Virus record (IMG/VR): IMGVR_UViG_3300034993_000035
Coordinates: 1-46,610 of that record
Strand: one strand, 5' to 3'
Source: a virus
Taxonomy: Duplodnaviria > Caudoviricetes
DNA length: 46,610 nucleotides
Of this stretch, positions 128-43,438 are shown one piece after another. Position 1 is the first letter of the stretch. Every line of letters begins with the position of its first letter. The notes under the pieces were generated by a model. The model saw only the letters and a list, made by a program, of their open reading frames with translations. It had not been told where the DNA came from and did no database searches. The position numbers and the translations under genes are program-made.

Positions 128-1607
128 TCTCCGGGACCGTGAAGCCTTGGACCAGGTGCTCGGCCAGAATCGTCAAATCACGGCCACCGAGCCCGTCAAT
201 CTGCTGGTCGTAGCGGAGGTCATGGAGCGCGCGGCCGCGCGCCTCGACGAAGAGAATGGCATTGCCCGCCACGACCGGCTTCGCCGTCGACGCGCCGAAG
301 TAGAGGTCTTGAATCGCATCCAGGCTGCTCGGCGTGAGCGGCCCTTCGGCACCTTCACCCGACACGATCCGATGGACGCCGTTGGTCGTGAGCACGGCGA
401 GCCCCGCCGCCACGGACACCAGATGCCGGATCGCGTGGTTCTGGTTCTGCGCCATGCGGATCGCGAGCGAGTCGTCATCCTGGAGCGGCGAGCTGCGCGT
501 GAAGTTCGCGCGTTGCCCGACCCGTGAGGCGTACATGGCGTCCGGCGTCGTGATCGTGTGCGCGAAGCACCGCCGCTGCTGATGGGTCGCCGACACGCCC
601 GGCCGCATGTTGCTCGACGTCAAGTCGATGTCGTTGATGGGCGGCGTAATCGCCGGATCAGCTAGAAAGCCGGTATCGAGAAACCGCACCTTGCTGCCCG
701 AGCCCAGCGCATTGGTTTTACACGTCCCGATGAACTCCAAGGTGCCGCTGCCCGTCGTGTCGCGGTAGACCCCATACTCCGGGCAATCGACGCCGGTATG
801 GGTGACTTTCGTCCATTCGTAGATGTTTGGGGCGGTCGGCGTCGGGAACACCGCCTGCGCCCGGCTACTGACTGCCACCAGCGACTCTTCAAAGGTCACT
901 GGCGCAAAGGCCGTGATGCCGATCTGGTTCTGGTCGGCCGGTCCCGCCCCCACGGTGCCAGCCGTGAAGGTGACGTTCGTCGGCGCGGCCACGGCCGGCC
1001 CGATGGAGACGGCCGACAACACCCAGCGCGTGAGCGCGATGAACACGAGTTCCCGCGCCGTCACGCCGGTATTGGTCAGTGTGATGATCGGGCCGGACTG
1101 ATGCCAGTAGAACCCAGCCGTGAACGGCGACGGGATCTCGTAGATGGCGACCCCGGCCGAGGCATCCGCCAGCGCGTACCAGTAGGTCGCATTCGGCGGC
1201 TGCTGGTTGATGTGCGCGAGGATGCAGTAGTAGACGACCCCGCCATCATCGGCCAGGTCGCCCACGGTGTAGTTCGTGGCGTTCGACCAGTTCGTGACGC
1301 TGGCGTGGGTCACTTCGACGCGCGCGCCGTCCTTGTAGAACCGGAGATAGCCGTTGCCTGCTTCGATCAGGATTGACTCGTTTGGGTCGTCCGCCAGGTA
1401 CGGGACCAGGAACTTTCCCGACGTGTTGTCCTTGCACCCCTCGATAAAGCCCCAGCCGGGACGGTTCGCGATAGCACCGCTTTTTTCGAGCAGGAAGTTC
1501 TTGAGCGTCCGCGCGGCAATCGTGCGCTTCGGGAGATCGGCCCGGATCTCAATCTTCGGGCTGATCTCGCCTCCAGCAAACGATCTCAAAATAATCGACT
1601 GGCTCAT
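1..1607 (-). CDS. Tail tubular protein B / nozzle, N-terminal part (about 751 aa in total across the circular join)
   Basis: Manual translation from ATG 1607 gives MSQSIILRSFAGGEISPKIEIRADL...NFLLEKSGAIANRPG, the typical N-terminus of this family. It is in frame with the 45835-46545 ORF and absent from the ORF track because it runs off the edge. Confidence 0.9.
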   Translation of the reverse strand, partial: MSQSIILRSFAGGEISPKIEIRADLPKRTIAARTLKNFLLEKSGAIANRPGWGFIEGCKDNTSGKFLVPYLADDPNESILIEAGNGYLRFYKDGARVEVTHASVTNWSNATNYTVGDLADDGGVVYYCILAHINQQPPNATYWYALADASAGVAIYEIPSPFTAGFYWHQSGPIITLTNTGVTARELVFIALTRWVLSAVSIGPAVAAPTNVTFTAGTVGAGPADQNQIGITAFAPVTFEESLVAVSSRAQAVFPTPTAPNIYEWTKVTHTGVDCPEYGVYRDTTGSGTLEFIGTCKTNALGSGSKVRFLDTGFLADPAITPPINDIDLTSSNMRPGVSATHQQRRCFAHTITTPDAMYASRVGQRANFTRSSPLQDDDSLAIRMAQNQNHAIRHLVSVAAGLAVLTTNGVHRIVSGEGAEGPLTPSSLDAIQDLYFGASTAKPVVAGNAILFVEARGRALHDLRYDQQIDGLGGRDLTILAEHLVQGFTVPEIVYQQNDNSIVWARRSDGRLLGMTYLREQDIYGWHQHVTSTA

Positions 1608-2917
1608 CGGTTCCGAATCCAGTCGGGATCGTTCGATCGCGTGTCTTGCGACTCCTCCTCATTGGCGGCCGTCGCGTGCGCCTTGGCCGCGTAGAAGGCG
1701 GCCATCGCGTAGCAGTCGGCTTGCGTCTTCTCGTTCTTCGAGAGCGTCGGCACGAAGAGCGCCGCCAGATACCACGCTAACGCTTCGCGGAAGTTCACAT
1801 CGCCCTGAAGCGCCGGGCAGGTCGGACGGATGATGTATTCCAGCTCGGCCGTCTCGACATCGGTATCAATCGCCCAGCCGACCGCGTCCTGTGCGGTGCG
1901 GAACGGCGACGGCGCCGGATTGAACTCGCGCGTATCGCCTTCCGCCTTGATACGAATAGCCCGGACGAAGTCCTCCGGCGCCCGGTAGCGAAACTGCCAG
2001 TCGGAATTGAACGCCGTCGCCGCAGTGCCGCCGACGAGCGTCGGTGAGGTCAGCCGCGAGAACGCCGGCCAGTTGAAGTCCCTGAGGATGGACTCAACCG
2101 CGCTCGGGATAAACCGCCGCGCCGTCTCATAGGCCGGGCCTGACCCAGACGACAGGCTCGTGAGGAACTGGCTCTGCCCCACATGCGCGAGCGCGTGATT
2201 GACGAGCGCCAGCGTCGCGTCGTGGCAGGAGAACCGAGCCGCCCAGATCGTCTGAATCTGCGCGTCCGTCAGCGCCACGCCGGGCATGTAGACGAGACGG
2301 GCCAGCACGGCGCGGAGGCGAAGATTCGAGGCATCGACCGCCCCGACCCGCGTCGGTGTGAACGTCGCAATCGATGCGGACACATTGCCGTCTCCGCCCT
2401 CGTAGCGGACACCATTCCGGTAAAACTTCGCCACCCCATCCGTCACGACCACTGTCACGAGCGCCACCTGACGCACGCCCAGGGATTCGTAATCGTCGTC
2501 CCAGTCCGATCCGCTGTCGGTTGTAAAGAGCGGCGCCCGGATCAATGAGCCGGTGATGCTGATCGCTAATCCCGTAGCAGATGTGTGGCTCCAGAGCACG
2601 GCGCCTGTCGTGTCAATGTTGTCGTGAAGTAGTTTGACGAGCGCCAGAATCGTGAACGTGGTCGTGCTGGCCGGGAGCGCACTGGCCGGCGTGAAGAACG
2701 AGCCGGACGCGAACTGCACGCCCGTCACGCCGGTAATCCCTGTCGCCTGCTGAAACGCCGGCGCACCCGTCAGCGTGAGCGCGATGTTGCCGTACCCGGA
2801 GTCCGTCGCATTCCCGGAGGCTTGGTCGAGCTTCCAACAATGCTGCGGGTCCAGCGCGGCAATCACGCTGTCGAACGTCGCCAGATCGTCCGTCAGGCTG
2901 TGCGGATCGCGCTCCAT
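1604..2917 (-). CDS. Tail tubular protein A (adaptor/gatekeeper) with an N-terminal LamG/ConA-like domain
   Basis: C-terminal half LVNHALAHVGQ...ILRDFNWPAF...WQFRYRAPEDFVRAIRI; N-terminal half CWKLDQASGNATDSG...FTILALVK...KFYRNGV...ALTDAQIQTIW; located between the capsid genes and tubular B. Confidence 0.85.
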   Translation of the reverse strand: MERDPHSLTDDLATFDSVIAALDPQHCWKLDQASGNATDSGYGNIALTLTGAPAFQQATGITGVTGVQFASGSFFTPASALPASTTTFTILALVKLLHDNIDTTGAVLWSHTSATGLAISITGSLIRAPLFTTDSGSDWDDDYESLGVRQVALVTVVVTDGVAKFYRNGVRYEGGDGNVSASIATFTPTRVGAVDASNLRLRAVLARLVYMPGVALTDAQIQTIWAARFSCHDATLALVNHALAHVGQSQFLTSLSSGSGPAYETARRFIPSAVESILRDFNWPAFSRLTSPTLVGGTAATAFNSDWQFRYRAPEDFVRAIRIKAEGDTREFNPAPSPFRTAQDAVGWAIDTDVETAELEYIIRPTCPALQGDVNFREALAWYLAALFVPTLSKNEKTQADCYAMAAFYAAKAHATAANEEESQDTRSNDPDWIRNR

Positions 2918-21165: not shown

Positions 21166-21227
21166 ACGGCCTCCCGCGCATCAGTGTCCATGTGCCGCGT
21201 GGTCATGGCGCTGCGTAAGAGGCTCAC
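21162..21227 (-). pseudogene. 21-codon remnant duplicating the HNH gene N-terminus
   Basis: MSLLRSAMTTRHMD versus MTLLRSQMTTRHMD; 20-bp exact repeat. Confidence 0.65.
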
Positions 21228-21793
21228 GACGCCACCTTAGGAGACGGCGAGAACTTCGCTTTCGCGCGAGCGAGAGCGGGGCCGATCAATTGGTGGATGC
21301 GCCCGCGGCTCAAGCCAAGTTCCTCACCAATACGATCCATAGTCCAGCCTTCAAAGAGGCCGGACAAAATCACGCGTTCGCGTTCGTTCGTTGCGTTGCG
21401 TAGTACGGCCTCGCGCTGGGTCCTACGATGAATCTGCTCGTCCACGTCAACGCTGTCGGCGGGAAGATCGATTTCCTCGCCCTCCTCGTTGATAGGCCAC
21501 GGATCGATATGCAGCACATGCTCCATCGGACCGTGCGACCCCTCTCCGAGCGCGTGCCACGTCCAACCGTTCTGGCGTTTCCAGATCCGATGGTGATGAC
21601 GGAGGTAACCGTCCACTGTTGAAAACACCCAACTCTTCACAGCAGCCCCACGCGATGGGTCGAAACTCCGAACAGCTTTCACTAATGCGAACATCGCGGT
21701 TGAACGCAATTCCTCGACCGTGTGGATGCCTTGCGACATGCGCGCGTACTTCACAGCGCCGCTTTCTGCATACGACATGTGCTCCACGATCAA
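21224..21793 (-). CDS. Sigma-70-family sigma factor (regions 2 and 4; start uncertain)
   Basis: EELRSTAMFALVKAVRSFDPSRG...W; ERERVIL...EGWTMDRIGEELGLSRGRIHQL. Confidence 0.88.
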   Translation of the reverse strand: MIVEHMSYAESGAVKYARMSQGIHTVEELRSTAMFALVKAVRSFDPSRGAAVKSWVFSTVDGYLRHHHRIWKRQNGWTWHALGEGSHGPMEHVLHIDPWPINEEGEEIDLPADSVDVDEQIHRRTQREAVLRNATNERERVILSGLFEGWTMDRIGEELGLSRGRIHQLIGPALARAKAKFSPSPKVAS

Positions 21794-28907: not shown

Positions 28908-28950
28908 TCGGCTTAGAAGGCCGATGCTCTGTCCCCTGAGCTACGGGCGC
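28908..28950 (-). mobile_element. attP core: 5' 43 nt of tRNA-Arg(UCU), a partial tRNA
   Basis: GCGCCCGTAGCTCAGGGGACAGAGCA-TCGGC-CTTCTAA-GCCGA contains acceptor 5' strand, D arm and anticodon arm; no T arm follows. Confidence 0.85.
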
Positions 28951-29227: not shown

Positions 29228-29406
29228 GCGCCCTGGTGCTGGGGATGATCTATCTGGTCGTGGGAATCGGGTTCGCGTGGCGGGACGCTAAGCTGCACGC
29301 GGAGGTGTCAGACGACTGGCTGACCCGCGTCATCTTAGCGATCCTCTACGTCACCGGCTGGCCGCTGTGGCTACTCACGCGAGTGGCTATGCGACTCTGG
29401 CGCTAG
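29224..29406 (+). CDS. Small two-TM membrane protein
   Basis: ATGA-coupled; two hydrophobic helices; GWPLWLL. Confidence 0.75.
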   Translation: MSALVLGMIYLVVGIGFAWRDAKLHAEVSDDWLTRVILAILYVTGWPLWLLTRVAMRLWR

Positions 29407-29906
29407 GGCAGATCCATCACCTGATCAGCAAGGCGATTTAGCCATCCTCGCGCCCAGCGACGTCGATCTGCCTTCTCTGACCAGAGGAGCTCGCCGACGA
29501 AGCGCAACCGCTCGGCGTAGACGCTTCGTGCGAGCGACGGCTGGCCGGCGACCGCCCGGAAGGCTGCTTGACTCCGCGGCCCCATCACGCCATCGGCGCG
29601 CACGCCGAGCGCCTTCTGCAGAATCACGATGGCCCGGTACAGTCCCGAATGCGCCGCGCAATCGGTGACGAGGTAGCCGACGATGCGATCGGCGATGCAG
29701 ATGTCGACGAGGCCGGTTCGCTGCATCCACGTCTCGTAATTGATGGCCGCGTCGGCCGCGTTCGACGGCGGGATAAACCCGTTGTCGTCGAGCCATTGCG
29801 GGGTCTGCCCGAAACGGGTCAGGCCCTTCCCGTCGCCGACGTCCGCCACACCGCCTTCAGCCTCAAGGATTCTGTCAATCGCGTACTGGACCGAGGCGGG
29901 TGTCAC
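29403..29906 (-). CDS. Endolysin, glycoside hydrolase family 108 with peptidoglycan-binding C-terminus
   Basis: ILEAEGG...G.TRFG.T; D.A.HSG..RA...LQ.ALGV.ADG.MGP; GWLNRL. Confidence 0.88.
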   Translation of the reverse strand: MTPASVQYAIDRILEAEGGVADVGDGKGLTRFGQTPQWLDDNGFIPPSNAADAAINYETWMQRTGLVDICIADRIVGYLVTDCAAHSGLYRAIVILQKALGVRADGVMGPRSQAAFRAVAGQPSLARSVYAERLRFVGELLWSEKADRRRWARGWLNRLADQVMDLP

Positions 29907-30220
29907 TTGCCGTCTTTCTTCGGTTCGGGTTTCTTCACGGCGACCATCTTCTGGGTGTCGAGTGTCCAGCCGGGGAACTCTTTCTCGAACTGCGCCACGG
30001 CTGTCTGAATCACCTGCCCACTCTCGCGGGCAATCGCCTGGTACTGCTGCTGCGCTCGATTAGCCTTCAGCACCGCGTTCTCGATGCGGAGCGCGATGAG
30101 TTCAGGCACCGCTGGCGGCGCTTGGGCCGTGCTCAGCGGCAGTGGCGGCGCCGGCTTCTCCTGCGGGGCCACCGGCACCAGCGCCAGCAGCCACAGTGCG
30201 ATCACGATCCCATACGTCAT
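29903..30220 (-). CDS. Membrane-anchored or secreted coiled-coil protein (i-spanin-like candidate)
   Basis: N-terminal hydrophobic segment, Pro linker, helix; next to the endolysin. Confidence 0.55.
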   Translation of the reverse strand: MTYGIVIALWLLALVPVAPQEKPAPPLPLSTAQAPPAVPELIALRIENAVLKANRAQQQYQAIARESGQVIQTAVAQFEKEFPGWTLDTQKMVAVKKPEPKKDGK

Positions 30221-30237
30221 GTGTCCTCGTTTCAACA

Positions 30238-31713: not shown

Positions 31714-33345
31714 TCACACCGGCTTTCGTAGTCGGAGCGCCGCGAACGCGCGATCCAGTAACGTCACCACCGGCGCCGGAGCGCCAGGCATCGGCAGATT
31801 CGAGCGTGGAATCCGCACGAGGAAGCAGTCCATCCGCGCCGAGTCGTGATTCGAGCAGAGGTAGTACCAGCGGCCATCCGATGACACGTTCGGCTTCGGG
31901 CCTTTGTAGTAGGCCTGTTCTGATTCGTTGCCGCCTGTGCCCGCCGCCGACATCATCGTCATCTGCGGCGCGATGACCATCACGGTCGGATCGCCGGGGC
32001 GGTAGACGTAGAGTTCTCGCTCGCGCGCTACCGGCGGATTAGGCGACCCACCAGAAGCCACGTTGGTGTGGAACACCATCTGCTCCGCGATAGGCGTCGT
32101 GGCCGCCGCCACCGCCGTACCCCACGCGGGCTGGCCAAATCCGTTCGGGAGATTGGTCGGGTAGCTCGTGACCAGCACGCCGCCCGCTGCCACGTCTGAG
32201 AGATCCCAGAGTTTGACCTGCTCGAAGCCGGCGCCGCCGCCCGCGCTCGCGTCGTTGTCGGACGCCAACATGTAGCCGAAGCCAAACGCGAGATGCCCTG
32301 GTGCGCCTCCAGGAGGCGTGCCGCCGTGTAAGTCACAAATCAAATCCTCACTAGCCGGTGACGCGAGCGGAAACACAATGAAATCATTCCCGCTTGATGT
32401 CGGGCAATTGGCTGGATTATTGGCAATACCCATCGCCCCGTAGGTGCCGCTGAGGTCCACAAACGGATCGCCGCCGGGCGGCTTGACGACCCACGTATCA
32501 GCAGCCGTCATGAAGATGGCGCCGAGGTTGTTTCCGGCGAAATCAAGAATCGTCGCCGAGAACTTCGAGCCATCCGCGGTCACATGCGGCGACCAGATCC
32601 GCACGTCATCGAGATAATCCCCAGCCGCACCGCCGAGCACCGCCGCCATCTGGGTCCGCGCGGCAATCGTGTTGATGTCGCCGACCGTCGTGCAATCGCC
32701 GCCAGCCTCAGACGACAGCGGCAAGGAGCCTAGACCCGATCCGGTATCGCAGCGGAGATAGTGCGCACGGCGCGTCGTGCCGCCGCCTTTGATGTAGAGG
32801 ACATTCGCTTCCGTCGGCGAGGTCTGCCAGCTATCGGTCGCCGAGTTGGCGCCTTCGTTGTCGTCGCCAACCTCAAACAGCTTCGCCCACGTGACGGTAT
32901 TTGTGCTGAGGACGTAGCAGCCCTTGTACGGCCCGAGATCGCCGAAGCTATTCCAGAAGCACACTTCATCCGACGCCGCGCCGGAGGGCGGGCCTTCGTA
33001 GAAGATGTTCTGCCAATCGCTGTATCCCGTTTGGCGCACGCAGTCAGTCGCGCCGCATCCATGCCCGCCCGAGGCGACACTCGTCCCTGTCGAGACCGTC
33101 AGCCGTACGCCGTCGGTATCGTAGGGAGACGGGAATCGGAACTTGACAGCCGTCGCGGGCAGGAACGCCGGAGAGTCGATGTCGTCCTGCTCGCGCGCCG
33201 TGGTGTCAGTAAACTCCTCGGTAAAGCCGCCCTGGGTGTCAGAGAACCCGCCGAACTCGGCCGACGCGATCCGCGCTCGGAAGTATTGCTCGGGCAGTAA
33301 CGCCGCTCCAGCCAGCAGGAACGCGAGTAGCGTGCGCGTCCTCAT
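31714..33345 (-). CDS. Exported beta-propeller-like protein (543 aa, 10 Cys)
   Basis: Signal-like N-terminus; HVTADGSKF and PNVSSDGRWYYLCSN blade motifs. Confidence 0.7.
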   Translation of the reverse strand: MRTRTLLAFLLAGAALLPEQYFRARIASAEFGGFSDTQGGFTEEFTDTTAREQDDIDSPAFLPATAVKFRFPSPYDTDGVRLTVSTGTSVASGGHGCGATDCVRQTGYSDWQNIFYEGPPSGAASDEVCFWNSFGDLGPYKGCYVLSTNTVTWAKLFEVGDDNEGANSATDSWQTSPTEANVLYIKGGGTTRRAHYLRCDTGSGLGSLPLSSEAGGDCTTVGDINTIAARTQMAAVLGGAAGDYLDDVRIWSPHVTADGSKFSATILDFAGNNLGAIFMTAADTWVVKPPGGDPFVDLSGTYGAMGIANNPANCPTSSGNDFIVFPLASPASEDLICDLHGGTPPGGAPGHLAFGFGYMLASDNDASAGGGAGFEQVKLWDLSDVAAGGVLVTSYPTNLPNGFGQPAWGTAVAAATTPIAEQMVFHTNVASGGSPNPPVARERELYVYRPGDPTVMVIAPQMTMMSAAGTGGNESEQAYYKGPKPNVSSDGRWYYLCSNHDSARMDCFLVRIPRSNLPMPGAPAPVVTLLDRAFAALRLRKPV

Positions 33346-34115
33346 CGGCGCACCGTCTTAATCTGCCGCAGGCGCACGCCGCCGCCACGGACAGGATTAT
33401 TGATGATGCCGGGGACAAACGACGGCGCCGCGCCGCCGTCCTCCCCAATCGCCGCGACGATATTCAGCGTGGCGTTCGTGCCGGTAAACGTCCAATCGAG
33501 ATCGAACGTGCCAGCCGTGGCCGCGCGCTTGTCCGCAAAGTTGAGATTGATCGTGGTGGAGGACGCGCCCTCTTCACGCGTCGTGGTGCCGGTGTCGGCG
33601 TTCAGGTCCACCGTGGACACGCCAGCCCCGACAATGAGCGCCGCCGTCGTCGGGTCCACGTCCGCGCCGTCAATCGGCGACGACTGAGACGCGCTCTCCC
33701 CGCCGCCGCTGTCCTGCACGCAGGAGGTCAGATCCGTCCCGCTGTATTCGGCCGCGTACGTGACCAGAAAGGTCTGCGCGGCGCTATCGAGCGTGATCGT
33801 ATAGGTCGCGGCAACCGTGTCGCACTTCACCCACATCAGCAGCCGATGGCCTGAGCCGTCCTGCGTGATGACGGTTTCCCACACGTTGTCTTGATCGTCG
33901 GCAATGGTCGGCGTGGACAGATTGCCGATGATGGAGATCACCACAAGCGCCCGGTCCGCCGCCGTCGTGATCGTGATGTCGTTATTCGGATCAGCGTCGT
34001 CCACGTCATCAGCGGTTATTTCGACGAAGGCCGAATCGAGCACGGCTGACACCACCGGCTCCGCCACCACAAGCGCCGCCAGCGCCATCGCGCACGAGAC
34101 GAGGAGAAGCTTCAT
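33342..34115 (-). CDS. Exported beta-rich protein in the tail-fibre locus
   Basis: Signal peptide MKLLLVSCAMALAALVVA; DDQDNVW...EYSG motif pattern. Confidence 0.7.
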   Translation of the reverse strand: MKLLLVSCAMALAALVVAEPVVSAVLDSAFVEITADDVDDADPNNDITITTAADRALVVISIIGNLSTPTIADDQDNVWETVITQDGSGHRLLMWVKCDTVAATYTITLDSAAQTFLVTYAAEYSGTDLTSCVQDSGGGESASQSSPIDGADVDPTTAALIVGAGVSTVDLNADTGTTTREEGASSTTINLNFADKRAATAGTFDLDWTFTGTNATLNIVAAIGEDGGAAPSFVPGIINNPVRGGGVRLRQIKTVRR

Positions 34116-34705
34116 CGCCGCGCCTTCCGCACCTGTACGCCGCCCTTCATGCCGTTAATGAACCCCTGCGGCCCGCCCACCGAGTACTCAATCGCCATTG
34201 TCACGAAGTCAATCGCCAAGGTGTTTGTGCTGTCCGTGCTCCACAGCGCCGCGCAGAACCCGTTTGCATTCACGATGGCCGGCGTCAGTGTCGCGCTCCA
34301 GACATCCGAGACGCCGCCGTTCGTGCTGATGACCTTCGTTGTGTTGTTGACCGTCACCGCGCTCTTGGCCGCTCCGATGAGCGTTGGCGTCGTGTCAGAG
34401 CACAACTGCGGAATATAATTGCTAGACCCTGTGCCCGTCTCGCTGGCCTCGACTCGCACTGTAATTCCCGCCACGGTCGCCGCGGCTGGGATGTCGAAAT
34501 CGAATGCCGCAATCAGGTAATCGCACGGCACCACACACGTGGTATCCGTCGCGTTGTCGCTCACGATGTTGCCGGGATTAATCCACGCGGTGGAGCCTGC
34601 CCGGTCCACGCTCGTGCCCGCGCCGGGGAACGTGTTCCCAGTCGCGTCGGCCAGGAGCGTGACCGCGAGTGCCAGCCAGATCGCCATCGTGGCGGTCCGC
34701 CTCAC
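34112..34705 (-). CDS. Exported beta-sandwich protein in the tail-fibre locus
   Basis: Signal peptide; AWINPGN...FDFDIPA.ATV.GI.V.VE...GG.SD.W..TLTPA.VN..GF. Confidence 0.7.
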   Translation of the reverse strand: MRRTATMAIWLALAVTLLADATGNTFPGAGTSVDRAGSTAWINPGNIVSDNATDTTCVVPCDYLIAAFDFDIPAAATVAGITVRVEASETGTGSSNYIPQLCSDTTPTLIGAAKSAVTVNNTTKVISTNGGVSDVWSATLTPAIVNANGFCAALWSTDSTNTLAIDFVTMAIEYSVGGPQGFINGMKGGVQVRKARR

Positions 34706-36403
34706 CTATCCACCGATGGTCACCGCGCGCCGATACGTGAACTCGATCCAGATGAACTGCACATCCTGATCGAGCGTGTCGCCGGCCGTGTCGGTGTCTC
34801 TGAGAACCTTGAAGTAGAACGTCTCACCAGCCGCGCAGCCGGTCGTCGTGAGCGCTTGGCTGACCGTGTGATTGTGCTGCAGCGTTGTGCCGAGGTTGGT
34901 GTCGGCCGTGAACGCATCAGCCGCGTTGAACGAGATCGCCGTAGACGCCGCGCCCGCTTCGAGGCAGCCGGTCTGCACGAGCCACACCACATCGTTCGCG
35001 GTCGTGGAGATCGCGCGCCAGTTGATCCGCGCGTGGAGACCACCGCTGGCGGTCCAGTCCGAGGGCAGCGGAAAGTTGTGATGCCACTCGGTCAGCGCCC
35101 CGCCGGTTGGAAACGTGACCGTGCCGTAGGCCGGGTCGCCCGAGGCCGCCGCCGTCGATTCGCACACCGCCGCCGCGCCAAGCGTCGTCGGCAGGTTGCC
35201 GCCGCCTGAGGCTGTCGCGTTCTGACAGACGGCCGCGTGGAACACCATCTTGAACGGGAGTGCGAGCGTGCCGGATGTCGGCGTGCCGAGCGCCCCGCCG
35301 TTGACCACGAAGGCCCCAGCCGAGCCCACATTCACGCCGAGCGCCGTGAGCACGCCCGTGCCGGCCGCGAACCCCTCAAAGTTCCCGCCCGTGTCATCCC
35401 AGAACACCAGCGCATCGGCGCCAGGGTCCGTGAACTCCGGGACGCCCAGATCGGCCAGATCGACCCACTCGGCCGCTGTGGCGCCGGCATTCACGCGGAG
35501 CACCTGATCAGCCGTGCCTATAGCGAGCCGCGCCGCGGTGTTCGACCCGGTGCCCTGTACCAAGTCCCCGGCCGCATCCCAGATCGTGTCCGTCCCAACC
35601 GCGCCGCCGCCGCCCGCCCCGAGCGCCACGTTCGCGCCGTTGATCCGCGCCGTCAGTTCGTTGGCCGTCGAGTCGTACCAGAGATCGCCATTTGACGGCG
35701 TGCCTGGATCGCCAGCGATGGAGCCCACATTGAGGCCGGCGGCGTCGGCACCGGGGTTGAAGGTCTGCCGCGTGTTGTCGATAAACGTGATGACGCCGTT
35801 AGCCGTGACCGTGCCGAGTGTCGTCGTGCCGCCTGAGAGATTAGAGGTCGACGAGGTGATAAACGCGCCCGTGATCGTCATCGCGCCAGAGGCCACCAGC
35901 ACATCTGAGCCGTTCACGCCGAGCGTGAGATCCGTGCCCGGCGTCGCCGCTTCCCAGCCGATGACGGTGTTGTTCGACAGCCTGAGCGAGCCCGCATCGG
36001 CCGGGTCGGCCCCGAAGGCCAACGAGGTCGCCGTCGCCGCTCCAAGGACCGGCGCCACGAAGGTCAGCCCGGAGAGCGTGGAGGCCCATTCGGCTGCCGT
36101 CGCACCCGCATTCACGCGGAGGAGTTGATTGGCCGTGCCGACGGCGAGCCGAGCCGCCGTATTCGCGCCCGTTCCTTGCACGAGATCTCCGGCGGCGTCC
36201 CAGATCGAATCCGTCCCAACCGCGCCGGACCCACCGACGGCGCCACAGTCCCAGCGCCGCGTCGAGATGTTGTAGACAATGCCCTCGCCGTCGGCGCACG
36301 CGAGCGGGATATTCGGCGGGTAGATGACCGGCGTGACCTGCGCGGCCGCAGGCACCGCCAGCGCCGTCAGGAACAGCGTGAGCGCGAGAATGCGGCCCTT
36401 CAT
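34706..36403 (-). CDS. Tail-fibre-like protein with a signal peptide
   Basis: MKGRILALTLFLTALAVPAAA-Q; duplicated AAGDL..GTG.NTAARLA.GTA.Q.LRV...ATA.EW repeat; GDLWYDST. Confidence 0.75.
   Translation of the reverse strand: MKGRILALTLFLTALAVPAAAQVTPVIYPPNIPLACADGEGIVYNISTRRWDCGAVGGSGAVGTDSIWDAAGDLVQGTGANTAARLAVGTANQLLRVNAGATAAEWASTLSGLTFVAPVLGAATATSLAFGADPADAGSLRLSNNTVIGWEAATPGTDLTLGVNGSDVLVASGAMTITGAFITSSTSNLSGGTTTLGTVTANGVITFIDNTRQTFNPGADAAGLNVGSIAGDPGTPSNGDLWYDSTANELTARINGANVALGAGGGGAVGTDTIWDAAGDLVQGTGSNTAARLAIGTADQVLRVNAGATAAEWVDLADLGVPEFTDPGADALVFWDDTGGNFEGFAAGTGVLTALGVNVGSAGAFVVNGGALGTPTSGTLALPFKMVFHAAVCQNATASGGGNLPTTLGAAAVCESTAAASGDPAYGTVTFPTGGALTEWHHNFPLPSDWTASGGLHARINWRAISTTANDVVWLVQTGCLEAGAASTAISFNAADAFTADTNLGTTLQHNHTVSQALTTTGCAAGETFYFKVLRDTDTAGDTLDQDVQFIWIEFTYRRAVTIGG
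35465..36226. repeat. Intragenic 141-bp (47-aa) duplication, 35465-35605 and 36086-36226
   Basis: GAVGTD(S/T)IWDAAGDLVQGTG(A/S)NTAARLA(V/I)GTA(N/D)Q(L/V)LRVNAGATAAEW occurs twice. Confidence 0.9.
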
Positions 36404-36843
36404 TGCCGGACCCACACGGTGAGCACGCCGCTATTGGCATTGCCTGCGGCGGCGATGTTGAGATCCAGCTTGCGCGATCGGCTGTGCCAGATCGGGACCG
36501 CGAAGACCACCGATTCCACATTCGCTGTATCGCGATTCGCGCCCTGCCCCTGCAGCACGTCCACGCCCGCCGTATCGAGGAGCGTGACATCGTAATTGTC
36601 GTCCGGAGCCAGCGCGCCGCCGTCCGGATCGGTGTCCATCCGGATGATCTCGCCGTAGGGAAAGTCCAGCGGGTTGGTGTTGACGTTGCCGGAGCCATCA
36701 GCTAGCCACGTAAACACGCACCGCTGCACGGAGCCGTTCCGTTCCGGACACGTCAGCGTCACCGTGCCGACCGCCTGCAGCGAACTGGCCGCCGGTGCCA
36801 GAAGGGCCAGAAGTACCAGGAAGAATCCAAGTCGTCGCATCAT
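36400..36843 (-). CDS. Exported beta-sandwich protein, first gene of the signal-peptide cluster
   Basis: GGAGG RBS; MRRLGFFLVLLALLAPAASSLQA; APDDNYDVTLLD..GVDVL.G.GANRD. Confidence 0.75.
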   Translation of the reverse strand: MMRRLGFFLVLLALLAPAASSLQAVGTVTLTCPERNGSVQRCVFTWLADGSGNVNTNPLDFPYGEIIRMDTDPDGGALAPDDNYDVTLLDTAGVDVLQGQGANRDTANVESVVFAVPIWHSRSRKLDLNIAAAGNANSGVLTVWVRQ

Positions 36844-36893: not shown

Positions 36894-37214
36894 CTAAATC
36901 TCAATCGGATCGGGGAACCCGCCGCCGCCCCCGTCCCCCTTCTTGCCGCCGAACTCAATGGCCGTGGGGGTCGCCACCGTGCCGCCGGTGACGAGAAACA
37001 CCACGGTGCCAACCGGGTAGTCCCCCGGATCAAAGTCGCCTTCCAGGACGGTCTCCACCTGTGTCCCGTCCGCCCCGTCGTCGCCGTCCGCTCCAGCCGA
37101 GCCATCGTCGCCGGCCGGGCCGACAAGCAGCGGCTGTAGATTGGCGTGGCCTCTGGCGACCGCTCCGCCGCGCACGAAGCGCCGACTGCCGACAATGCGG
37201 TTTCTGCCGGCCAT
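36894..37214 (-). CDS. Short collagen-like (Gly-X-Y) protein
   Basis: GPAGDDGSAGADGDDGADG; TAATG-coupled to the 2074-aa gene. Confidence 0.65.
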   Translation of the reverse strand: MAGRNRIVGSRRFVRGGAVARGHANLQPLLVGPAGDDGSAGADGDDGADGTQVETVLEGDFDPGDYPVGTVVFLVTGGTVATPTAIEFGGKKGDGGGGGFPDPIEI

Positions 37215-40200
37215 TACTGATCCCTCTTCGGCCCGAAGATAAGGGCCAGCGGGTTCTGCGTCCGGTCTTCGATGAGCGCCGCCACCCCTTCGGCCGTGCG
37301 CTGCGCCTGTGACGCCGGATACCGAAAGACCGTGCCGGCCACACTATTGAGCGACCGCGCCAGCGCCGCATCGATCTCGCCTTGTTCGACCTGCTGCGCC
37401 GCCCGCACGACGCTGACCAAGACCCGCGTGCCCGCCGGCCCTTCGTAGCCCCGGACCGCGGTATCGGCGTCCGTCAGCGCGCGCGCAATCGTGCTCACGT
37501 CCCGCACAACCGCCATCGTGCCCATCGCCGTACTCATGGACTCACCCGCAATGGCCCAAAACCATTCCTCTTCGTCGTCGGGCCACGCGCCCTTCAGGAT
37601 GGCCGCGAGCACCGTCGTGCCGATGGCCGGTGCGACGTAGACGAGCGACAGGTCCGAGAGCGCCTTAGCCACCGACGCCGGGCTCTGGTAGTCCGTCCGG
37701 CCGTGAATCCGGCGCGTCTGCTGAAAGACGAGGTTGGCGTAGGAGTAGAACGTCAGCCAGGCGCGCATCGCCGGCCCGCCGCGCTGGATCTCGGCCATGT
37801 CCTTGATCGACCCGCCGCCCTGCGAGTCGAGCACGAGCTGATCGGCCAGCCGGAACGCCTTCTCTTCGTCGATGGCTGCCGGTCCCTGCCGTCGCATCGC
37901 GTCCATCGCCTGCTCGTAGCCGGCCAGCCACGCCGGGATGTCCGCGAGGAGCTGCGCCTTGCCGATGTGCCACATGAACGAATCGCCGAGTTGTTCCTGT
38001 GTGACGGCATCGCCCGTGACTTGGAGCAGCAGCCGATTGAACCAGCCGCCTTCCTTGCGGAACGCCTCACGGAGATCGGACATCTCCTGATTGAGATTCG
38101 ATTCCCGCTGGCGCATGAACGCGGAGTTCGAGCGAATCCAGGCGAGGGTCGATTCCTGCGAGCCCGCATCCTTCCCGAACCGTGCCAGCCCTTTGAAGTA
38201 GTAGTGGTAGTCGCCGGCGCCGAGGACCGCCAGTGTATTAGCGTTGCCGAGGGGCTGCTGCGCGGCCGTCCAGGCGTTGTACCCCATCGCGGCAATCTGG
38301 CTGCCGGTCTTCATCCAATTGAACAGCTTGTCAGCCGAGGTCCGGGCCGGCACGTAGCCGTGCGCGATGTCTTTCACTGCACCCATGATCTGCGCGTAGA
38401 CCAGCGGGCCGTGAGACGCGCTGATCGCCTGCTCGACGACCTTTCCGTTGAGGAGCCGCGTGACGTCGATCAATGTCTCGTGGAAGGCGAGATCATGCAC
38501 CACCTGATCGACGTGCTGGCCGACCACGGTGAGTTCCAAGAGCAGCGGCATCGAGACCGTCTTCAGCCGCTCCTCGGTGTGGCCGCGCTCGGTCGTCATC
38601 CGGCCGTAGCCCGCCGTGGCCGTGAGTTTCCCATCGGCCGCGATGTCGAGCATCCCCGGCCGGGCCGCCAGTTTGGAGTCGTAGGCAATCGGGTAGTAGC
38701 CGCCGCGGAGCGTGCCGGACTTTGTGACGAGCGGCACGGCCGCCACCTTCTTCGGCTCAAGCCCGGTCAGCCGCTTTTCTTTCGCGGCAATCTCGGGCCA
38801 GAACGTCTCCAGGTAATCCCACGTCGCCTGCACGAACCGGGTATCGCGCTCGTCGAGCGTGGCCGCAATGGCTTCAAGTTCCACGGGCGTGTACTTCCGC
38901 TGCGGGTCCGTCTGCAACCGCGCGAGGTTGTCGGCGTTGCCCATGTTGAGGACAATCGCGATCCGGGCCTCTTTCGTCAGACTGAAGGTGGTGCCGGGAA
39001 TCTCCCGCGCGATAGAGAACTCGGCCCGCTCGCTCCGCGTGTAGTGCGCGTCAAGAATGGCCGTGTAGGCCTTGGCTTCCTTGGTGTTCCGGTCCCGCTT
39101 CCAGTCGTCAGCTTCGTTCAGCGGCCGGCCGACGAGTTCCCACACCTTACCGCCCGTCTCCGACCCGTCCAGCTCGTGAATGAACTGGCTGAGCTTCGTG
39201 TGGGTCGCAAACCACGACGCGACGGAGATCCGCCGCTTGTCGGCGTCTGTGACTTCATGGACGCGGCCGCCCTTCGGCGGCGTCTTCGCGGCGATGTGAT
39301 CGGCGGTCTCCTGCCGCACCTCGTCCAGCACGGCCTTGTTGCCGATCTTGACGAAGCGATTCTCGATGTTAGCCGCGTGGACAATCTGCCGCAGGCCGTC
39401 CGTGATGCCCAGAAACTCCTCTGTCGAGAGCGTCTGATACGGGGTCGCCGGTGTGCCGAGCGCCGTCGGGAGATCCACCGGCAGCCCACGCGCACGCTGC
39501 GCAGCGGCCCACTTCTCAGGATCAGCGGCCCGAGCGGCGAGTTCCGTCTTCGTCATCGACACGAACGAGTACCGCTCCAGGATCGCCCGTGCCTGTTCGA
39601 TGAACGAGTCGCCAGCCAGCCCCAGCTTCGCCAGCTTCTTGGGCTTCGTGAGATCCCGCGCCTGCTTGGCCCGCTTCTGGATCTCGTCCTGCAACTGCAT
39701 CGACTGTCGGAACAGCGCGAGGTTGAGCAGTTCCCGATGCTTGGCCGAGACCGCCGCGTCGAAATCATTTTTGCCCGCCGCCTCCGTCGCTTCCTTGCTG
39801 GCCTTGCGGGCGGCGACCCAATACGTCTGTGGCGTGAGGTTTTGCACGATGGTCCGCGAGAGCCGATCAGCCGCTTGCCGCGCGAAGAACCCAAGATCAG
39901 GAATACCCGCCCGGAGCGTTGTCACCGGAGACCGCGCCTGCATCTTTCGCAGCGCCTTCAGTTCCTCATAAACAATCGTCTCGGCGTGGTCGTTGATGAT
40001 GGCCGCTCGGGCCTGCTCGTGGAGCGTGCCATCAAGCAACATCGACCCGTGCTCGGCCAGCATCCGCTCGTTCGTCAGCCGGACGACCTTCCGCGCCATC
40101 GGCTCGGCAGAAGCCAAGGCATTAAGCAGCGCATCGCCAGAGTCGAAGCCAAAGAGTTCCGCCGCCTCTGACGGTGTGAGCCCGCCCAGTTCCGTCGTCG

Positions 40201-43200
40201 TCAACCCCTTCGGCAGTTCCGACAACCGGCCCGGATAGTTGCTCTGAATCGTGTGCTTGCTGAGCGGGTTCGGCTTCGGGTCGCCGTCGGTCAGCGACAC
40301 CCCCGCAGGCGTCGTGCCGTCCTTGATGGCCGAGAGCGCGAGATAGACCGGCTCGGCGTAGACATCGGCCTGCACCTGCGCTTGCACTTCGGCCTTGCGC
40401 TCTTTCCATGCGGCCGTGTTCTCACGGCGCACGTCCTGCAACAGCCGCGTTTCCAGCGTCTCGACGGCCTGCTGGTGGGCCTTCGTAATCGTCGCCGTGT
40501 AGCGGTCGAACTGTTCCGGCGTGTAGCCCATGCCCTCGGGCGTCAGGAACATCGGGGAGAGATCGGCTTCTTGCGCGACTTGGGCAATGGCCTCATCCGT
40601 CGCCAGCATCCGGTCCACGATGGCGCGGACTTCCGGCGAGAACTCCACCGTGGTCCGGAGGTGCTTCACGAGCGCGAGCAGCCACGAGCGGAACCGCGCG
40701 AAGGCCCCGCGCAAGGCGACACTCGGCGCTTTGCCATCGCGGACGTACGACTCAAATGCCTCCGCGAACTTCTCATGAAATGGCGTCTTGGCTTCGGTGG
40801 AGAGCGAGCGCCAGTCTGATAGCGACCCCTCAAAACCGCTCCACTTGAGCAGCGCCGCGAAGTCGGTCAGCGTGCGCGCCTGCTCTGGTGTGTGCTTGGC
40901 AGCATCGATCGCCGCCACTTCCGCCGAGACATCGGCGAACACATCGAGGAATAGATGGGCCGATTCATGGATGACAGATGACAGATCCGCCTTCTCGAAC
41001 AGCACCATCGTTCGCTTGAGTGTGGCGTCATCGATGCGGAGCGCGGCGCGTTCGCCTTGCAGGAGAATGCTAGGATTCTTCGGATCGAACGTGCCCTGAT
41101 TGCCGATGGCTGACTTGACTTGCGACGGCGAGAACACTGCGACTGTGCCCGCTTCACCAGCAGTCGTAATCTTCGGGAAGATAATCCCGTCGTGACCCGC
41201 CTTTTTGGCTCGGGCGATCTCCTTGACCATCTCGCGGCTGTTGTAGAACTCCATCGACGAAATGAACGGGTTCTCGATCTTCAGGTAAACCGGATACACA
41301 ACGCTTCCAACTTCTGGAAACTCAATACCAAGTGATTCGTTTAGCATCTTGGCCGCAAACGCTTGGCCAGTCCGTTCCGAAAGTCCCACACCAGCAACAC
41401 TTGCTGAATGATTCGCGGTGTCAGGTGTCGTCGAGAAAAACAGCGCCTTTTCGCCGGCCACGCCGCGAGTCTCTCCGGCATGCGCAACATCGAACGTATC
41501 AAAGGATCGTGCCGTGCCGTGGTACATGACCTGAGGCTGACCCTGAGCATCAACGGCCTTACTTTCACCGAACCACAACTGAAACGCGGGCGTGAACGTC
41601 TGCGGCTTCGCTTTATCGCCCTGAAAGAACTGCGCGACACGCTGCGTCAGCGTCGGCTGCTTCGCCGCCGCCGCTTGTGCCGCCGTCTCCCGCGTCACCG
41701 CCAGCCCGTACCGCTGATACACCGCCATCGGGTCCAGACCGAACCGCTGCGCCAGCGTCGTGAAGCCCGCCTCGACGAGTTGCGCGTACTGCTCGGCCTC
41801 AGCCGGCTTAAACCGCCCGCCTTCGGTGAACTGCTGGAAGGCGTGCTCAAAGATGGGGCGCGGCTGCTCGCCTTCCGTCGCCGGTTCGTCCTTCGCGCCG
41901 AGTTCCGTCGCGACCGCTTCCTCTTCCTTCGCGTTGGCCACCCCAGGCGCGCGGCGGAACTCTTGATTGAGTTCGGCAAACTGGGGCGCGATATGCACCC
42001 GGTAACTGGCTTCTGGAATCTTCAGCGCCTCGCCGGTCTGCACAGCATCGGCGTACGCCTGCTGCGAACCCGTCACGGTCGCCGCCATCTCGGCCGGGTC
42101 GATACCCTTGCCTTGGAAAAACTCGGTCCACGTCGGCAGGTCCACGTAGACGCTAGCCTCGCCGGTCGCCGCCTTCAGCGCGTCAATCGCCACATGCGGC
42201 AGCGATTGCACGGTCGTGGACTCAGCGGCCACCTTGCCGGACTCGTCCATTGCCCGCGCCGCAATCCGTGCGCCGGAACTCATGAGCGCCGTCGCCGTGA
42301 CCGTGCTGACGAGAGTCGCCGCCGCTTGGCTCGGCCGCTCGGCCAGAAAGTCCGCGCCCGTCTTCTGCTGATTCGACGGCAGCGTCACCCAATCGCTCCA
42401 GTCCTGCAGGAGTGTGGCGACCTGTTCGCCGGGGATCTCCGTCGCGAGCTGCTGCCCGATCAGTTTGAAGAACGACGCGCCCTCTTTGACGCCCTTGAAC
42501 AACAGCCCGACCGGAATCCGTTCCGTGGCGACTTCGACCGCCGCGTGGAAGCCCGCATGGAGCGCCGCCGGCCCAGACCTGACGCCTTGCTCCCGCGCCC
42601 CCGCGTAGGCCGTACCGCCCGTCGTCACCCCCAGACCGGCCAGCACGCCCGCCGGCCCAAACGGCGCAAACTGCACGACCTGCCCGACCGACCGGATGCC
42701 GCCATAGACCGCCTGCTCGACCGGCCCGGCGCCCGTCATCGGGCCTTGCGTCAATTCCGCCTTGACGGCGGCTATCCGCTGGGCCCCGGTCGCAAACTCG
42801 GCCGCCGTCCCGAGCGGCGTCCGGGTCGCCTGAAAGCCAGGCAGCGTCCGCGCCGCAATCGCCTGAGTCGCCACGTCCAAGTTCTCAGCCGCGGCGCGCA
42901 CCGCGCCCCAGAAGCCCGCCCCGACATCCCACCAGGACGCGCCGAGCGCCCCGGCCGTGTTGCGACTGATGCGCGACAGGCTAGACAGGTGCTGCAGATC
43001 GCCCTTGACGGCCCCGACCGTGACCGCATCCTGACGGGTCAGCCACTCCGCCAGCTCGGCCGAATCCAGCAGCCACTTCCGCTGCTGGTCGCTCGGCATC
43101 GCCTGATAGGTCTCCCAGTTCCGCTGAATGACATCGGACGGCAGCCCGAGGATGCGCGACCGTTCCAGGATGTCGGCTGCCTGCTTCGGGTCGAGATCCG

Positions 43201-43438
43201 GCGCGAGGTTCAGCGTCGTCCGCAGCCGCGCGTCACGGCCGCGTCTGTCGTCCAGAATGTCCTGCAGGTACGGATTCGCCGGCGGCGGGACGGCCGGCGG
43301 CGGAGCCAGCGGCGCCGGTCCCTGCGGTTGGCGGCGCTTCTGCTCGCTCAGCAGGTCATCGAGATAGGGATTCCCTGAGGACGGTTGAAGCGGCTGCCCC
43401 GCCTGCTCAAGCGCGTCTTCGATGATGGGATTCGCCAT
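37214..43438 (-). CDS. Large internal virion / DNA-ejection polyvalent protein with ART-like and HExxH domains
   Basis: 2074 aa, mostly helical; F..WFG.SK.VD..G.P...YHGT...FFS...YPVYL.I.NP...G.DG.I...VF.P.QVKS..GN.GTFD; VIHESAH...HEKFA..FE.Y...GKAPS. Confidence 0.85.
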   Translation of the reverse strand: MANPIIEDALEQAGQPLQPSSGNPYLDDLLSEQKRRQPQGPAPLAPPPAVPPPANPYLQDILDDRRGRDARLRTTLNLAPDLDPKQAADILERSRILGLPSDVIQRNWETYQAMPSDQQRKWLLDSAELAEWLTRQDAVTVGAVKGDLQHLSSLSRISRNTAGALGASWWDVGAGFWGAVRAAAENLDVATQAIAARTLPGFQATRTPLGTAAEFATGAQRIAAVKAELTQGPMTGAGPVEQAVYGGIRSVGQVVQFAPFGPAGVLAGLGVTTGGTAYAGAREQGVRSGPAALHAGFHAAVEVATERIPVGLLFKGVKEGASFFKLIGQQLATEIPGEQVATLLQDWSDWVTLPSNQQKTGADFLAERPSQAAATLVSTVTATALMSSGARIAARAMDESGKVAAESTTVQSLPHVAIDALKAATGEASVYVDLPTWTEFFQGKGIDPAEMAATVTGSQQAYADAVQTGEALKIPEASYRVHIAPQFAELNQEFRRAPGVANAKEEEAVATELGAKDEPATEGEQPRPIFEHAFQQFTEGGRFKPAEAEQYAQLVEAGFTTLAQRFGLDPMAVYQRYGLAVTRETAAQAAAAKQPTLTQRVAQFFQGDKAKPQTFTPAFQLWFGESKAVDAQGQPQVMYHGTARSFDTFDVAHAGETRGVAGEKALFFSTTPDTANHSASVAGVGLSERTGQAFAAKMLNESLGIEFPEVGSVVYPVYLKIENPFISSMEFYNSREMVKEIARAKKAGHDGIIFPKITTAGEAGTVAVFSPSQVKSAIGNQGTFDPKNPSILLQGERAALRIDDATLKRTMVLFEKADLSSVIHESAHLFLDVFADVSAEVAAIDAAKHTPEQARTLTDFAALLKWSGFEGSLSDWRSLSTEAKTPFHEKFAEAFESYVRDGKAPSVALRGAFARFRSWLLALVKHLRTTVEFSPEVRAIVDRMLATDEAIAQVAQEADLSPMFLTPEGMGYTPEQFDRYTATITKAHQQAVETLETRLLQDVRRENTAAWKERKAEVQAQVQADVYAEPVYLALSAIKDGTTPAGVSLTDGDPKPNPLSKHTIQSNYPGRLSELPKGLTTTELGGLTPSEAAELFGFDSGDALLNALASAEPMARKVVRLTNERMLAEHGSMLLDGTLHEQARAAIINDHAETIVYEELKALRKMQARSPVTTLRAGIPDLGFFARQAADRLSRTIVQNLTPQTYWVAARKASKEATEAAGKNDFDAAVSAKHRELLNLALFRQSMQLQDEIQKRAKQARDLTKPKKLAKLGLAGDSFIEQARAILERYSFVSMTKTELAARAADPEKWAAAQRARGLPVDLPTALGTPATPYQTLSTEEFLGITDGLRQIVHAANIENRFVKIGNKAVLDEVRQETADHIAAKTPPKGGRVHEVTDADKRRISVASWFATHTKLSQFIHELDGSETGGKVWELVGRPLNEADDWKRDRNTKEAKAYTAILDAHYTRSERAEFSIAREIPGTTFSLTKEARIAIVLNMGNADNLARLQTDPQRKYTPVELEAIAATLDERDTRFVQATWDYLETFWPEIAAKEKRLTGLEPKKVAAVPLVTKSGTLRGGYYPIAYDSKLAARPGMLDIAADGKLTATAGYGRMTTERGHTEERLKTVSMPLLLELTVVGQHVDQVVHDLAFHETLIDVTRLLNGKVVEQAISASHGPLVYAQIMGAVKDIAHGYVPARTSADKLFNWMKTGSQIAAMGYNAWTAAQQPLGNANTLAVLGAGDYHYYFKGLARFGKDAGSQESTLAWIRSNSAFMRQRESNLNQEMSDLREAFRKEGGWFNRLLLQVTGDAVTQEQLGDSFMWHIGKAQLLADIPAWLAGYEQAMDAMRRQGPAAIDEEKAFRLADQLVLDSQGGGSIKDMAEIQRGGPAMRAWLTFYSYANLVFQQTRRIHGRTDYQSPASVAKALSDLSLVYVAPAIGTTVLAAILKGAWPDDEEEWFWAIAGESMSTAMGTMAVVRDVSTIARALTDADTAVRGYEGPAGTRVLVSVVRAAQQVEQGEIDAALARSLNSVAGTVFRYPASQAQRTAEGVAALIEDRTQNPLALIFGPKRDQ

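What the first reader, a model, noticed from the sequence alone, without database searches (positions are those of the whole stretch)
31714..36843. Tail-fibre locus made of five Sec-exported, paired-cysteine proteins: possible extracytoplasmic assembly of the adsorption apparatus
Seen: five consecutive coupled genes in the position where podoviruses encode fibres or spikes all begin with signal-peptide-like N-termini (MRRLGFFLVLLALLAPAASSLQA; MKGRILALTLFLTALAVPAAA; MRRTATMAIWLALAVTLLADA; MKLLLVSCAMALAALVVA; MRTRTLLAFLLAGAALL). Their mature parts have even Cys counts (2, 6, 4, 2, 10), mostly as neighbouring pairs. One has duplicated tail-fibre-type repeats, and no other fibre gene with a recognisable virion-attachment domain was found. 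Known: tailed-phage virion proteins normally fold and assemble in the reducing cytoplasm without signal peptides, while disulfides form in the periplasm. Inference: receptor-binding parts are exported, oxidatively folded and attached to particles only at or after lysis, which could also prevent premature adsorption. Alternatively they form a phage-encoded cell-surface or secreted adhesin complex. Either would be an unusual, possibly undescribed system.
Basis: partly seen in the sequence, partly recalled or inferred. Interest (0 to 1): 0.9.

Follow-up and report, generated by a model that had tools for sequence, protein, structure and literature searches.

The report
Phage tail fibres built for export
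A complete short-tailed phage genome puts secretion-signal-like leaders and paired cysteines on all five proteins of its fibre gene block, so this predicted host-recognition gear likely folds outside the cytoplasm and would join the virus particle only when the cell bursts, a route not found described for tailed phages.

Summary
Observation confirmed. The window is a complete temperate BPP-1/T7-type podovirus, probably of Acidobacteriota. Five tightly coupled late-operon genes (A-E) begin with Sec-type leaders and carry 2, 6, 4, 2, 10 mature cysteines. Relatives supply natural controls: most homologues of A (65 of 82) and C (100 of the best 150) are leaderless and start exactly where the window's mature protein would start; cysteines are gained and lost two at a time and are even in leader-bearing fibres (38 of 41 versus 8 of 12). 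One relative of B carries the leader directly before a T7 particle-binding domain, and cultured Tunturi_1 shows the same pattern, although Tunturi_3 and 4 do not. Export with disulfide formation is very likely; attachment to the particle after lysis is inferred (about 0.6), and the docking partner in this phage is unidentified. Rivals: a soluble lysis-time helper or decoy, or a lysogen surface adhesin. SignalP and proteomics were not available. Seven literature searches found no description; this scan has noted the same trait before on other DNA (79 findings), so it is a widespread, apparently unpublished system rather than a one-off.

The parts
36400..36840 (-). A, 146 aa: leader (about 1-23) plus a single jelly-roll beta-sandwich with Cys31/Cys41 on neighbouring strands; family of mostly leaderless phage head-module proteins
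   Evidence: (pLDDT 84.9)
34706..36403 (-). B, 565 aa: leader (1-21, AAA|Q), Cys36/Cys53 hairpin, fibre-type shaft with a duplicated repeat, C-terminal jelly-roll knob (about 378-563) with Cys393/414 and Cys480/523
35464..35606 (.). second copy of the shaft repeat of B
   Evidence: 78% identical to 36085-36227
36085..36227 (.). first copy of the shaft repeat of B
34112..34705 (-). C, 197 aa: leader plus one domain that is the N-terminal domain of many long leaderless proteins; short basic C-terminal tail
33342..34115 (-). D, 257 aa: leader, beta-rich body (fold not predicted), C-terminal motif PGIINNPVRGGG shared with unrelated proteins encoded behind B in other phages; candidate docking tag
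31714..33345 (-). E, 543 aa: leader plus predicted beta-propeller resembling oligogalacturonate lyase/TolB, five cysteine pairs
36894..37214 (-). leaderless, cysteine-free 106-aa collagen-like protein; candidate cytoplasm-made anchor for the exported parts (inferred from position only)
   Evidence: (one homologue, also directly before A)
1604..2917 (-). tail adaptor (phrog_394, residues 237-437) with an N-terminal LamG-like domain, leaderless; second candidate docking site or an independent receptor-binding part
   Evidence: PF13385 22.1 bits, below the 27.6 cut-off; 48% identical full-length homologue in G002
28909..28950 (-). probable attP core: 5' half of a tRNA-Arg(TCT) beside the integrase; host pointer

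Best explanation
The five genes encode a modular fibre-and-tip appendage whose subunits are very likely exported by the host Sec pathway, likely fold with disulfide bonds in the periplasm, and would dock on the cytoplasm-built particle only when lysis mixes the two compartments. Shown from sequence: late-operon position and coupling, leaders, cysteine pairing, fibre repeats, leaderless virion-module relatives. Predicted: A and the tip of B are jelly rolls (B's like sugar-binding modules), E is a propeller. Inferred: B is a trimeric fibre that acts as hub; C, D and E hang on it by their short C-terminal tails and bind or cut host surface polysaccharide; A, with the leaderless collagen-like protein or the adaptor's LamG domain, links the assembly to the particle. 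The likely gain is disulfide-stiffened, exchangeable receptor-binding parts.
For: (1) Leader is an add-on: in 82 distinct A homologues the family profile starts at median residue 1 in 65 leaderless ones and 23 in 17 leader-bearing ones (alignment); 100 of the best 150 C homologues are leaderless with the domain at the very N-terminus, matching profile position 25-26. (2) Cysteines behave as disulfides: A mature domain has exactly one Cys in 0 of 17 leader-bearing versus 23 of 65 leaderless; B representatives (<40% identity) with 4 or more Cys are even in 38 of 41 with leader, 8 of 12 without (Fisher p 0.039); in E, Cys129/143 are lost together in 1 and Cys497/507 in 3 of 6 homologues, and a pair present in all 6 is wholly absent in the window; C's four Cys are all absent from its 61% identical homologue. 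(3) Virion link: B relatives sit in morphogenesis operons, 22 of 28 flagged with a leader; L128's B relative has leader + PF03906 T7 fibre N-terminal domain (28.1 bits, cut-off 25.2; phrog_1640 E 5e-30) in the T7-type fibre slot; leaderless A relatives lie between major capsid and head-tail adaptor genes; a leaderless C relative lies next to head-tail joining and portal genes; leaderless B relatives carry Mtd_N. (4) Repeated origin: 6 label changes on the A tree, at least 2 forced, shuffled mean 15.9; a neighbouring family also gains leaders. (5) No minus-strand promoter or terminator consensus inside the block. (6) Cultured plaque-forming Tunturi_1 has leaders on gp12-17, including its annotated tail spike, and none on core virion genes.
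Against: No particle has been examined. B itself lacks a known particle-binding domain. Leaderless LamG-adaptor, 303-aa and collagen-like proteins could serve adsorption without the five. Tunturi_3 and Tunturi_4, on the same host genus, have no leaders among 27 and 20 structural-region ORFs. 5 of 52 leader-bearing B representatives have no Cys and 3 of 41 have odd counts; Tunturi_1 gp16 and gp17 have 1 and 31. In some relatives the last gene ends in a hydrophobic, basic tail like a membrane anchor (L016, L118, L144). The leader rule is my own, not SignalP; the tree is the quick version on 127 columns; homologues are related, so p-values are optimistic.
Confidence: 0.6

Rival explanations
1. 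The proteins are exported late in infection but stay off the particle: a fibre-derived soluble complex that cuts capsule or matrix to free progeny, or masks receptors on the lysing cell and its debris.
For: E resembles a lyase-type propeller (atlas TM 0.52-0.53 to oligogalacturonate lyase clusters, below the naming bar); B's tip resembles carbohydrate-binding modules (Z 12.5, rmsd 2.5, 123 aligned to 7ay3); the block lies just before the lysis genes; no known particle-binding domain in the five.
Against: A B relative keeps a T7 particle-binding domain behind its leader; leader-bearing A relatives keep their place inside head modules of siphoviruses; no other fibre is recognisable in this complete genome.
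Confidence: 0.2
2. A lysogenic-conversion module: the prophage displays a fibre-like adhesin or superinfection shield on the host surface, as lambda does with Lom and Bdellovibrio with its MAT fibres.
For: The phage is temperate (integrase, repressor, attP). Lom has a signal peptide, lies among lambda tail genes and is a host membrane protein (PMC12309495, one passage). MAT proteins show that phage-like fibres with signal peptides and disulfides are surface displayed (PMC10769870, passages). Membrane-anchor-like tails in L016, L118, L144.
Against: Genes are coupled to the virion operon with normal GC3 and no own promoter consensus; no transmembrane segment after the leaders; no PEP-CTERM or other sorting model hit in 16 proteins; B's knob had one strong match in 401 Acidobacteriota genomes, so it is not a common chromosomal surface protein there.
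Confidence: 0.12
3. The leaders are not used for export (hydrophobic assembly peptides, or mis-called starts); the proteins assemble in the cytoplasm and disulfides form by air oxidation after release.
For: SignalP and N-terminal sequencing could not be run; E's and D's cleavage sites are less canonical; major capsid proteins of P. gingivalis phages have predicted signal peptides thought to be cut by the prohead protease (PMC10367356, passage).
Against: Starts are fixed by overlap with the upstream stop; leaders vary in sequence but keep basic-hydrophobic-AxA layout in dozens of homologues and end where leaderless relatives begin; even cysteine counts track the leader.
Confidence: 0.08

Closest known systems
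Podovirus tail fibres of T7/BPP-1 type (T7 gp17, Pfam PF03906)
   Same: Gene slot behind the ejection proteins; fibre repeats; distal sugar-binding-type domain; one relative of B carries PF03906.
   Different: Known fibres are leaderless and assemble in the cytoplasm (own knowledge); here all parts have leaders and paired cysteines, the appendage is split over five genes, and B lacks PF03906.
Bdellovibrio MAT fibres (PMC10769870, passages read)
   Same: [quoted passage not shown]
   Different: Chromosomal genes displayed on the predator's surface, not phage late genes; 13 of 21 end in an S74 domain, for which the five have no Pfam hit.
Filamentous phage coat protein pIII (recalled; no call)
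   Same: Phage receptor-binding protein with Sec leader and periplasmic disulfides.
   Different: Membrane-anchored and added during extrusion without lysis; this phage has portal, terminase, HK97-type head and lysis genes and the five have no anchor helix.
Capsid cement/decoration proteins (KHP40 7dou, GP4 8h89, Pam1 7eel)
   Same: A is a single jelly roll (Z 6.9, 6.8, 6.3; rmsd 3.2-3.4; 100-114 aligned) and its leaderless relatives follow the capsid gene; such proteins bind finished capsids (own knowledge).
   Different: Scores tie with unrelated cupins and binding modules; known cements are leaderless; here A sits in the tail-fibre slot.
Phage morons with signal peptides: lambda Lom (PMC12309495, passage) and Q-rule proteins of P. 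gingivalis prophages (PMC10367356, passages)
   Same: Phage-encoded Sec substrates, Lom among tail genes.
   Different: Interpreted as host-envelope modifiers, not fibre homologues; here the substrates are homologous to leaderless virion-module proteins.

Membership tests
Sec/signal peptidase I substrates | basic n-region, hydrophobic core, small-residue cleavage site, leader dispensable for the mature fold | tested here: met
   clear for A, B, C; cleavage site less canonical for D, E; own rule and alignment, not SignalP
Sec/signal peptidase I substrates | export and cleavage in vivo | not testable with these tools
   needs reporter fusion or N-terminal proteomics
T7/BPP-1-type podovirus tail fibre | position in the late operon behind the ejection proteins | tested here: met
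T7/BPP-1-type podovirus tail fibre | N-terminal particle-binding domain PF03906 | tested here: not met
   no hit in the five; present in relative L128
T7/BPP-1-type podovirus tail fibre | leaderless, cytoplasmic synthesis | tested here: not met
T7/BPP-1-type podovirus tail fibre | homotrimer bound to the virion | not tested
   B was folded as a monomer only (shaft pLDDT below 50)
Bdellovibrio MAT fibres | signal peptide on a phage-fibre-like protein | tested here: met
Bdellovibrio MAT fibres | conserved ~130-aa beta-rich domain after the signal peptide | not tested
   no MAT sequence was compared; B has only a short hairpin there in the model
Bdellovibrio MAT fibres | chromosomal gene, displayed on the cell surface | tested here: not met
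   genes lie in a complete phage record; display itself not testable
Capsid cement/decoration jelly rolls | single jelly-roll fold specifically like a cement protein | tested here: inconclusive
   Z 6-7, tied with unrelated folds
PEP-CTERM/exosortase targets | C-terminal PEP motif, transmembrane helix, basic tail | tested here: not met
   no NCBIfam hit at E up to 1; no hydrophobic C-terminal helix in the five
PL22 oligogalacturonate lyase | beta-propeller fold | tested here: inconclusive
   atlas model pLDDT 0.64, TM 0.52-0.53, under the naming bar; no Pfam hit
PL22 oligogalacturonate lyase | catalytic residues and lyase activity | not tested
   none

The most novel reading that the evidence does not exclude
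Many tailed phages of soil and sediment diderm bacteria run a second, periplasmic assembly line: fibres, tips and head appendages are secreted, disulfide-stapled and snapped onto finished particles only at lysis through short docking tags, so host-range parts are made apart from the capsid and could even be swapped between particles outside the cell.
Probability: 0.55. Interest if true: 0.92.

Novelty: categorically new. Interest (0 to 1): 0.8.

Why it matters
Tailed phages are taught to finish their particles in the cytoplasm before lysis. An exported, oxidatively folded adsorption apparatus would add a new branch to phage morphogenesis, make infectivity depend on host Sec and disulfide machinery, explain why fibre genes of these phages escape annotation, and mean that annotation pipelines mislabel such genes as lysogenic-conversion or host genes. 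It is directly testable because a cultured phage (Tunturi_1) has the same trait.

Tried and rejected
Complex prediction of the collagen-like protein (45-106, three copies) with mature A (three copies): no answer, score 0.02 against a mark of 0.32; neither support nor evidence against. PHROG, Pfam, NCBIfam and solved-structure sequence searches gave nothing for the five or the 303-aa orphan. Foldseek gave no PDB match at E below 0.001 for A. A suspected likeness between the 303-aa orphan and the N-terminal domain of L013's B was not supported by BLASTP. A profile of the head-module family that precedes A in siphoviruses did not match the collagen-like protein. No homologue of A, and only a 27-residue match for B, among annotated phage records; Tunturi proteins show the trait but no sequence match to the five. 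E gave no viral-contig locus and one short metagenome contig. Sequencing runs: one DNA holder, possibly the source sample; no RNA holder listed. Cluster membership and source names could not be looked up, so hosts of protein-only homologues are unknown. PEP-CTERM reading of C-terminal tails rejected. Literature searches (listings only, apart from the passages cited) returned no description of exported tailed-phage fibres; subscription papers and supplements are not covered.

Full report
Context. The window is one complete virus record of 46,610 bases with direct terminal repeats. Profile hits identify a temperate podovirus of BPP-1/T7 layout: terminases, portal (phrog_332), capsid (phrog_212), Bbp16-type protein, tail adaptor (phrog_394), nozzle (phrog_376, split across the record ends), three ejection proteins, then the block in question, lysis genes, integrase and repressor. 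Beside the integrase lies the 5' half of a tRNA-Arg(TCT). It matches within two mismatches in 9 of 401 Acidobacteriota genomes (none exact; one of the nine, G157, is unpublished and the point stands on the other eight), the match is a tRNA-Arg(TCT) in 2 of 2 loci checked, and it was not found in two other phylum samples of 151 genomes each or in 5 single genomes. The host is therefore probably an acidobacterium, a diderm with a periplasm; other high-GC phyla were not sampled.

The observation. All five genes, their leaders, coupling and cysteine counts (2, 6, 4, 2, 10) are as described, as is the repeat in B. A crude leader rule of my own flagged 4 of 72 called minus-strand ORFs, all in this block. 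Capsid, portal, adaptor and ejection proteins are leaderless, and the three ejection proteins have no cysteine.

The leaders are add-ons. A's family is mostly leaderless. Of 82 distinct homologues (duplicates, one fragment and lengths outside 112-180 aa dropped), 65 have no leader and begin with the sequence that follows the window's predicted cleavage site; the family profile starts at median residue 1 in these and 23 in the 17 with leaders. For C, 4,216 proteins matched; of the best 150, 100 are leaderless with the domain at the N-terminus, 18 have leaders and 32 are other forms. On a quick tree of A's mature domain the leader needs 6 changes, at least 2 forced by strong branches, against 15.9 for shuffled labels, so it was gained or lost more than once. 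A second family, which precedes A in siphovirus head modules, shows the same switch (L033, L051, L087), and L064 has it leaderless beside a leader-bearing A.

The cysteines behave as disulfides. In A's mature domain a single cysteine occurs in 0 of 17 leader-bearing and 23 of 65 leaderless proteins; 13 of 17 have two. Among 86 B representatives under 40% identity, those with four or more cysteines are even in 38 of 41 with leader and 8 of 12 without (p 0.039; the second group includes truncated and mis-started genes); all long ORFs of those loci give 45 of 52 versus 49 of 82. The four knob cysteines are invariant in 18 aligned close relatives. In E, pairs vanish together: 129/143 in one, 497/507 in three of six homologues, and a pair found in all six is absent from the window. 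C's four cysteines are all replaced in its 61% identical homologue, which has two others. Exceptions: 5 of 52 leader-bearing B representatives have none and 2 lost only one knob cysteine. That disulfides form in the periplasm is established knowledge; that these do is inferred.

What the parts look like. A folds as one jelly roll (pLDDT 84.9); matches include phage cement proteins but tie with unrelated folds (Z 6-7). B's shaft is not modelled as a monomer, while residues about 378-563 form a confident jelly roll closest to carbohydrate-binding modules (Z 12.5, rmsd 2.5, 123 aligned). E's atlas model is a propeller near oligogalacturonate lyase/TolB, below the naming bar, with unnamed clusters in Nitrospirota, Acidobacteriota and Uroviricota. 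C and D were not folded. The protein encoded behind B ends in a shared motif, of the form P-x-I-I-N-x-P-x-R-G-G-G, in 7 of 10 hand-picked aligned proteins whose bodies are 15-31% identical; I read this as a docking tag, untested.

Link to the particle. B relatives occur in morphogenesis operons of differently built phages; of 28 loci, 22 were flagged with a leader, 2 are cut at the start, 2 show a leader by eye, 1 has none at the called start and 1 was not displayed. A close podovirus keeps collagen-like gene, A and B but has different last two genes, also with leaders (L016); a P22-type phage carries B-C-D-E right after its capsid gene (L013). In L128 the B relative has a leader followed at once by the T7 fibre particle-binding domain, in the T7 fibre slot. 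Leaderless relatives are virion-module genes: A between capsid and head-tail adaptor, C beside head-tail joining and portal genes in the one leaderless locus retrieved, B with Mtd_N domains. Following a lead from an earlier scan note I checked cultured Acidobacteria phages (first 50 kb of three of five): Tunturi_1 has leaders on gp12-17, with 20, 10, 20, 2, 1 and 31 cysteines after residue 25, and none on core genes; Tunturi_3 and 4 have none in 27 and 20 ORFs. A term search of the isolation paper (PMC11924767) found no mention of signal peptides or mass spectrometry.

Mechanism. Most likely the block is transcribed with the virion genes (no internal consensus promoter or terminator), its products are exported, cleaved, oxidised and assembled into a fibre with several tips in the periplasm, and they dock on the particle when lysis mixes compartments. 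Export and pairing rest on comparative sequence evidence; docking is inferred; the anchor here (collagen-like protein or LamG-adaptor) is a guess from position and conservation in L016. I give this 0.6, a soluble lysis-time helper or decoy 0.2, a lysogen surface adhesin 0.12 and non-export 0.08.

Known systems and novelty. Nearest are ordinary podovirus fibres (leaderless), Bdellovibrio MAT fibres (exported but cellular; passages), filamentous phage pIII (recalled) and signal-peptide morons such as Lom and the P. gingivalis Q-rule proteins (passages). It fails membership in each on a defining feature. Seven searches of the open library showed no description for tailed phages; closed journals and supplements were not seen. 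This scan has recorded the same trait on other DNA (79 findings by words; six look-alike windows by sequence, four of them phage fibre blocks); these are unchecked notes and are not counted as support. Verdict: real, widespread, apparently undescribed; interest 0.8.

Noticed in passing
window 37214-43438, residues 630-784: The 2074-aa ejection protein carries an ART-PolyVal (ADP-ribosyltransferase-like) domain; the L016 homologue aligns only on either side of this region, suggesting a swappable insert.
   Followed up: no
window 1604-2917: LamG-like domain fused to the N-terminus of the tail adaptor, kept in the close relative G002.
   Followed up: partly
window 6469-7380: Leaderless 303-aa orphan between portal and Bbp19-like gene; its C-terminal part is 64% identical in G002; possible head appendage.
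   Followed up: partly
window 29903-30235: 110-aa protein with a hydrophobic N-terminus and no cysteine just before the endolysin, 40% identical homologue in L016; possibly a sixth exported protein or a spanin-like lysis factor.
   Followed up: no
window 29403-29906 and L016 15227-15688: The endolysin differs between the two close relatives (no match to the window's enzyme) although flanking genes are shared.
   Followed up: no
window 21224-21793: Phage-encoded sigma-70-type factor with regions 2 and 4, a candidate late-gene activator.
   Followed up: no
L051 6872-11044, L087, L089, L033, L064: Siphoviruses with several leader-bearing genes inside the head module, between capsid and head-tail adaptor.
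   Followed up: partly
L008, L009, L010: Leader-bearing B relatives with 0-1 cysteine: export without disulfides in another lineage.
   Followed up: no
L016 13164-14891, L118 11802-14459, L144 12487-14274: Last exported protein ends in a hydrophobic stretch plus arginines, like a membrane anchor; no curated sorting model matches.
   Followed up: partly
proteins P0152-P0301: Long leaderless proteins with the C domain at the N-terminus often end in short acidic-hydrophobic or basic tails, suggesting C-terminally anchored fibres.
   Followed up: partly
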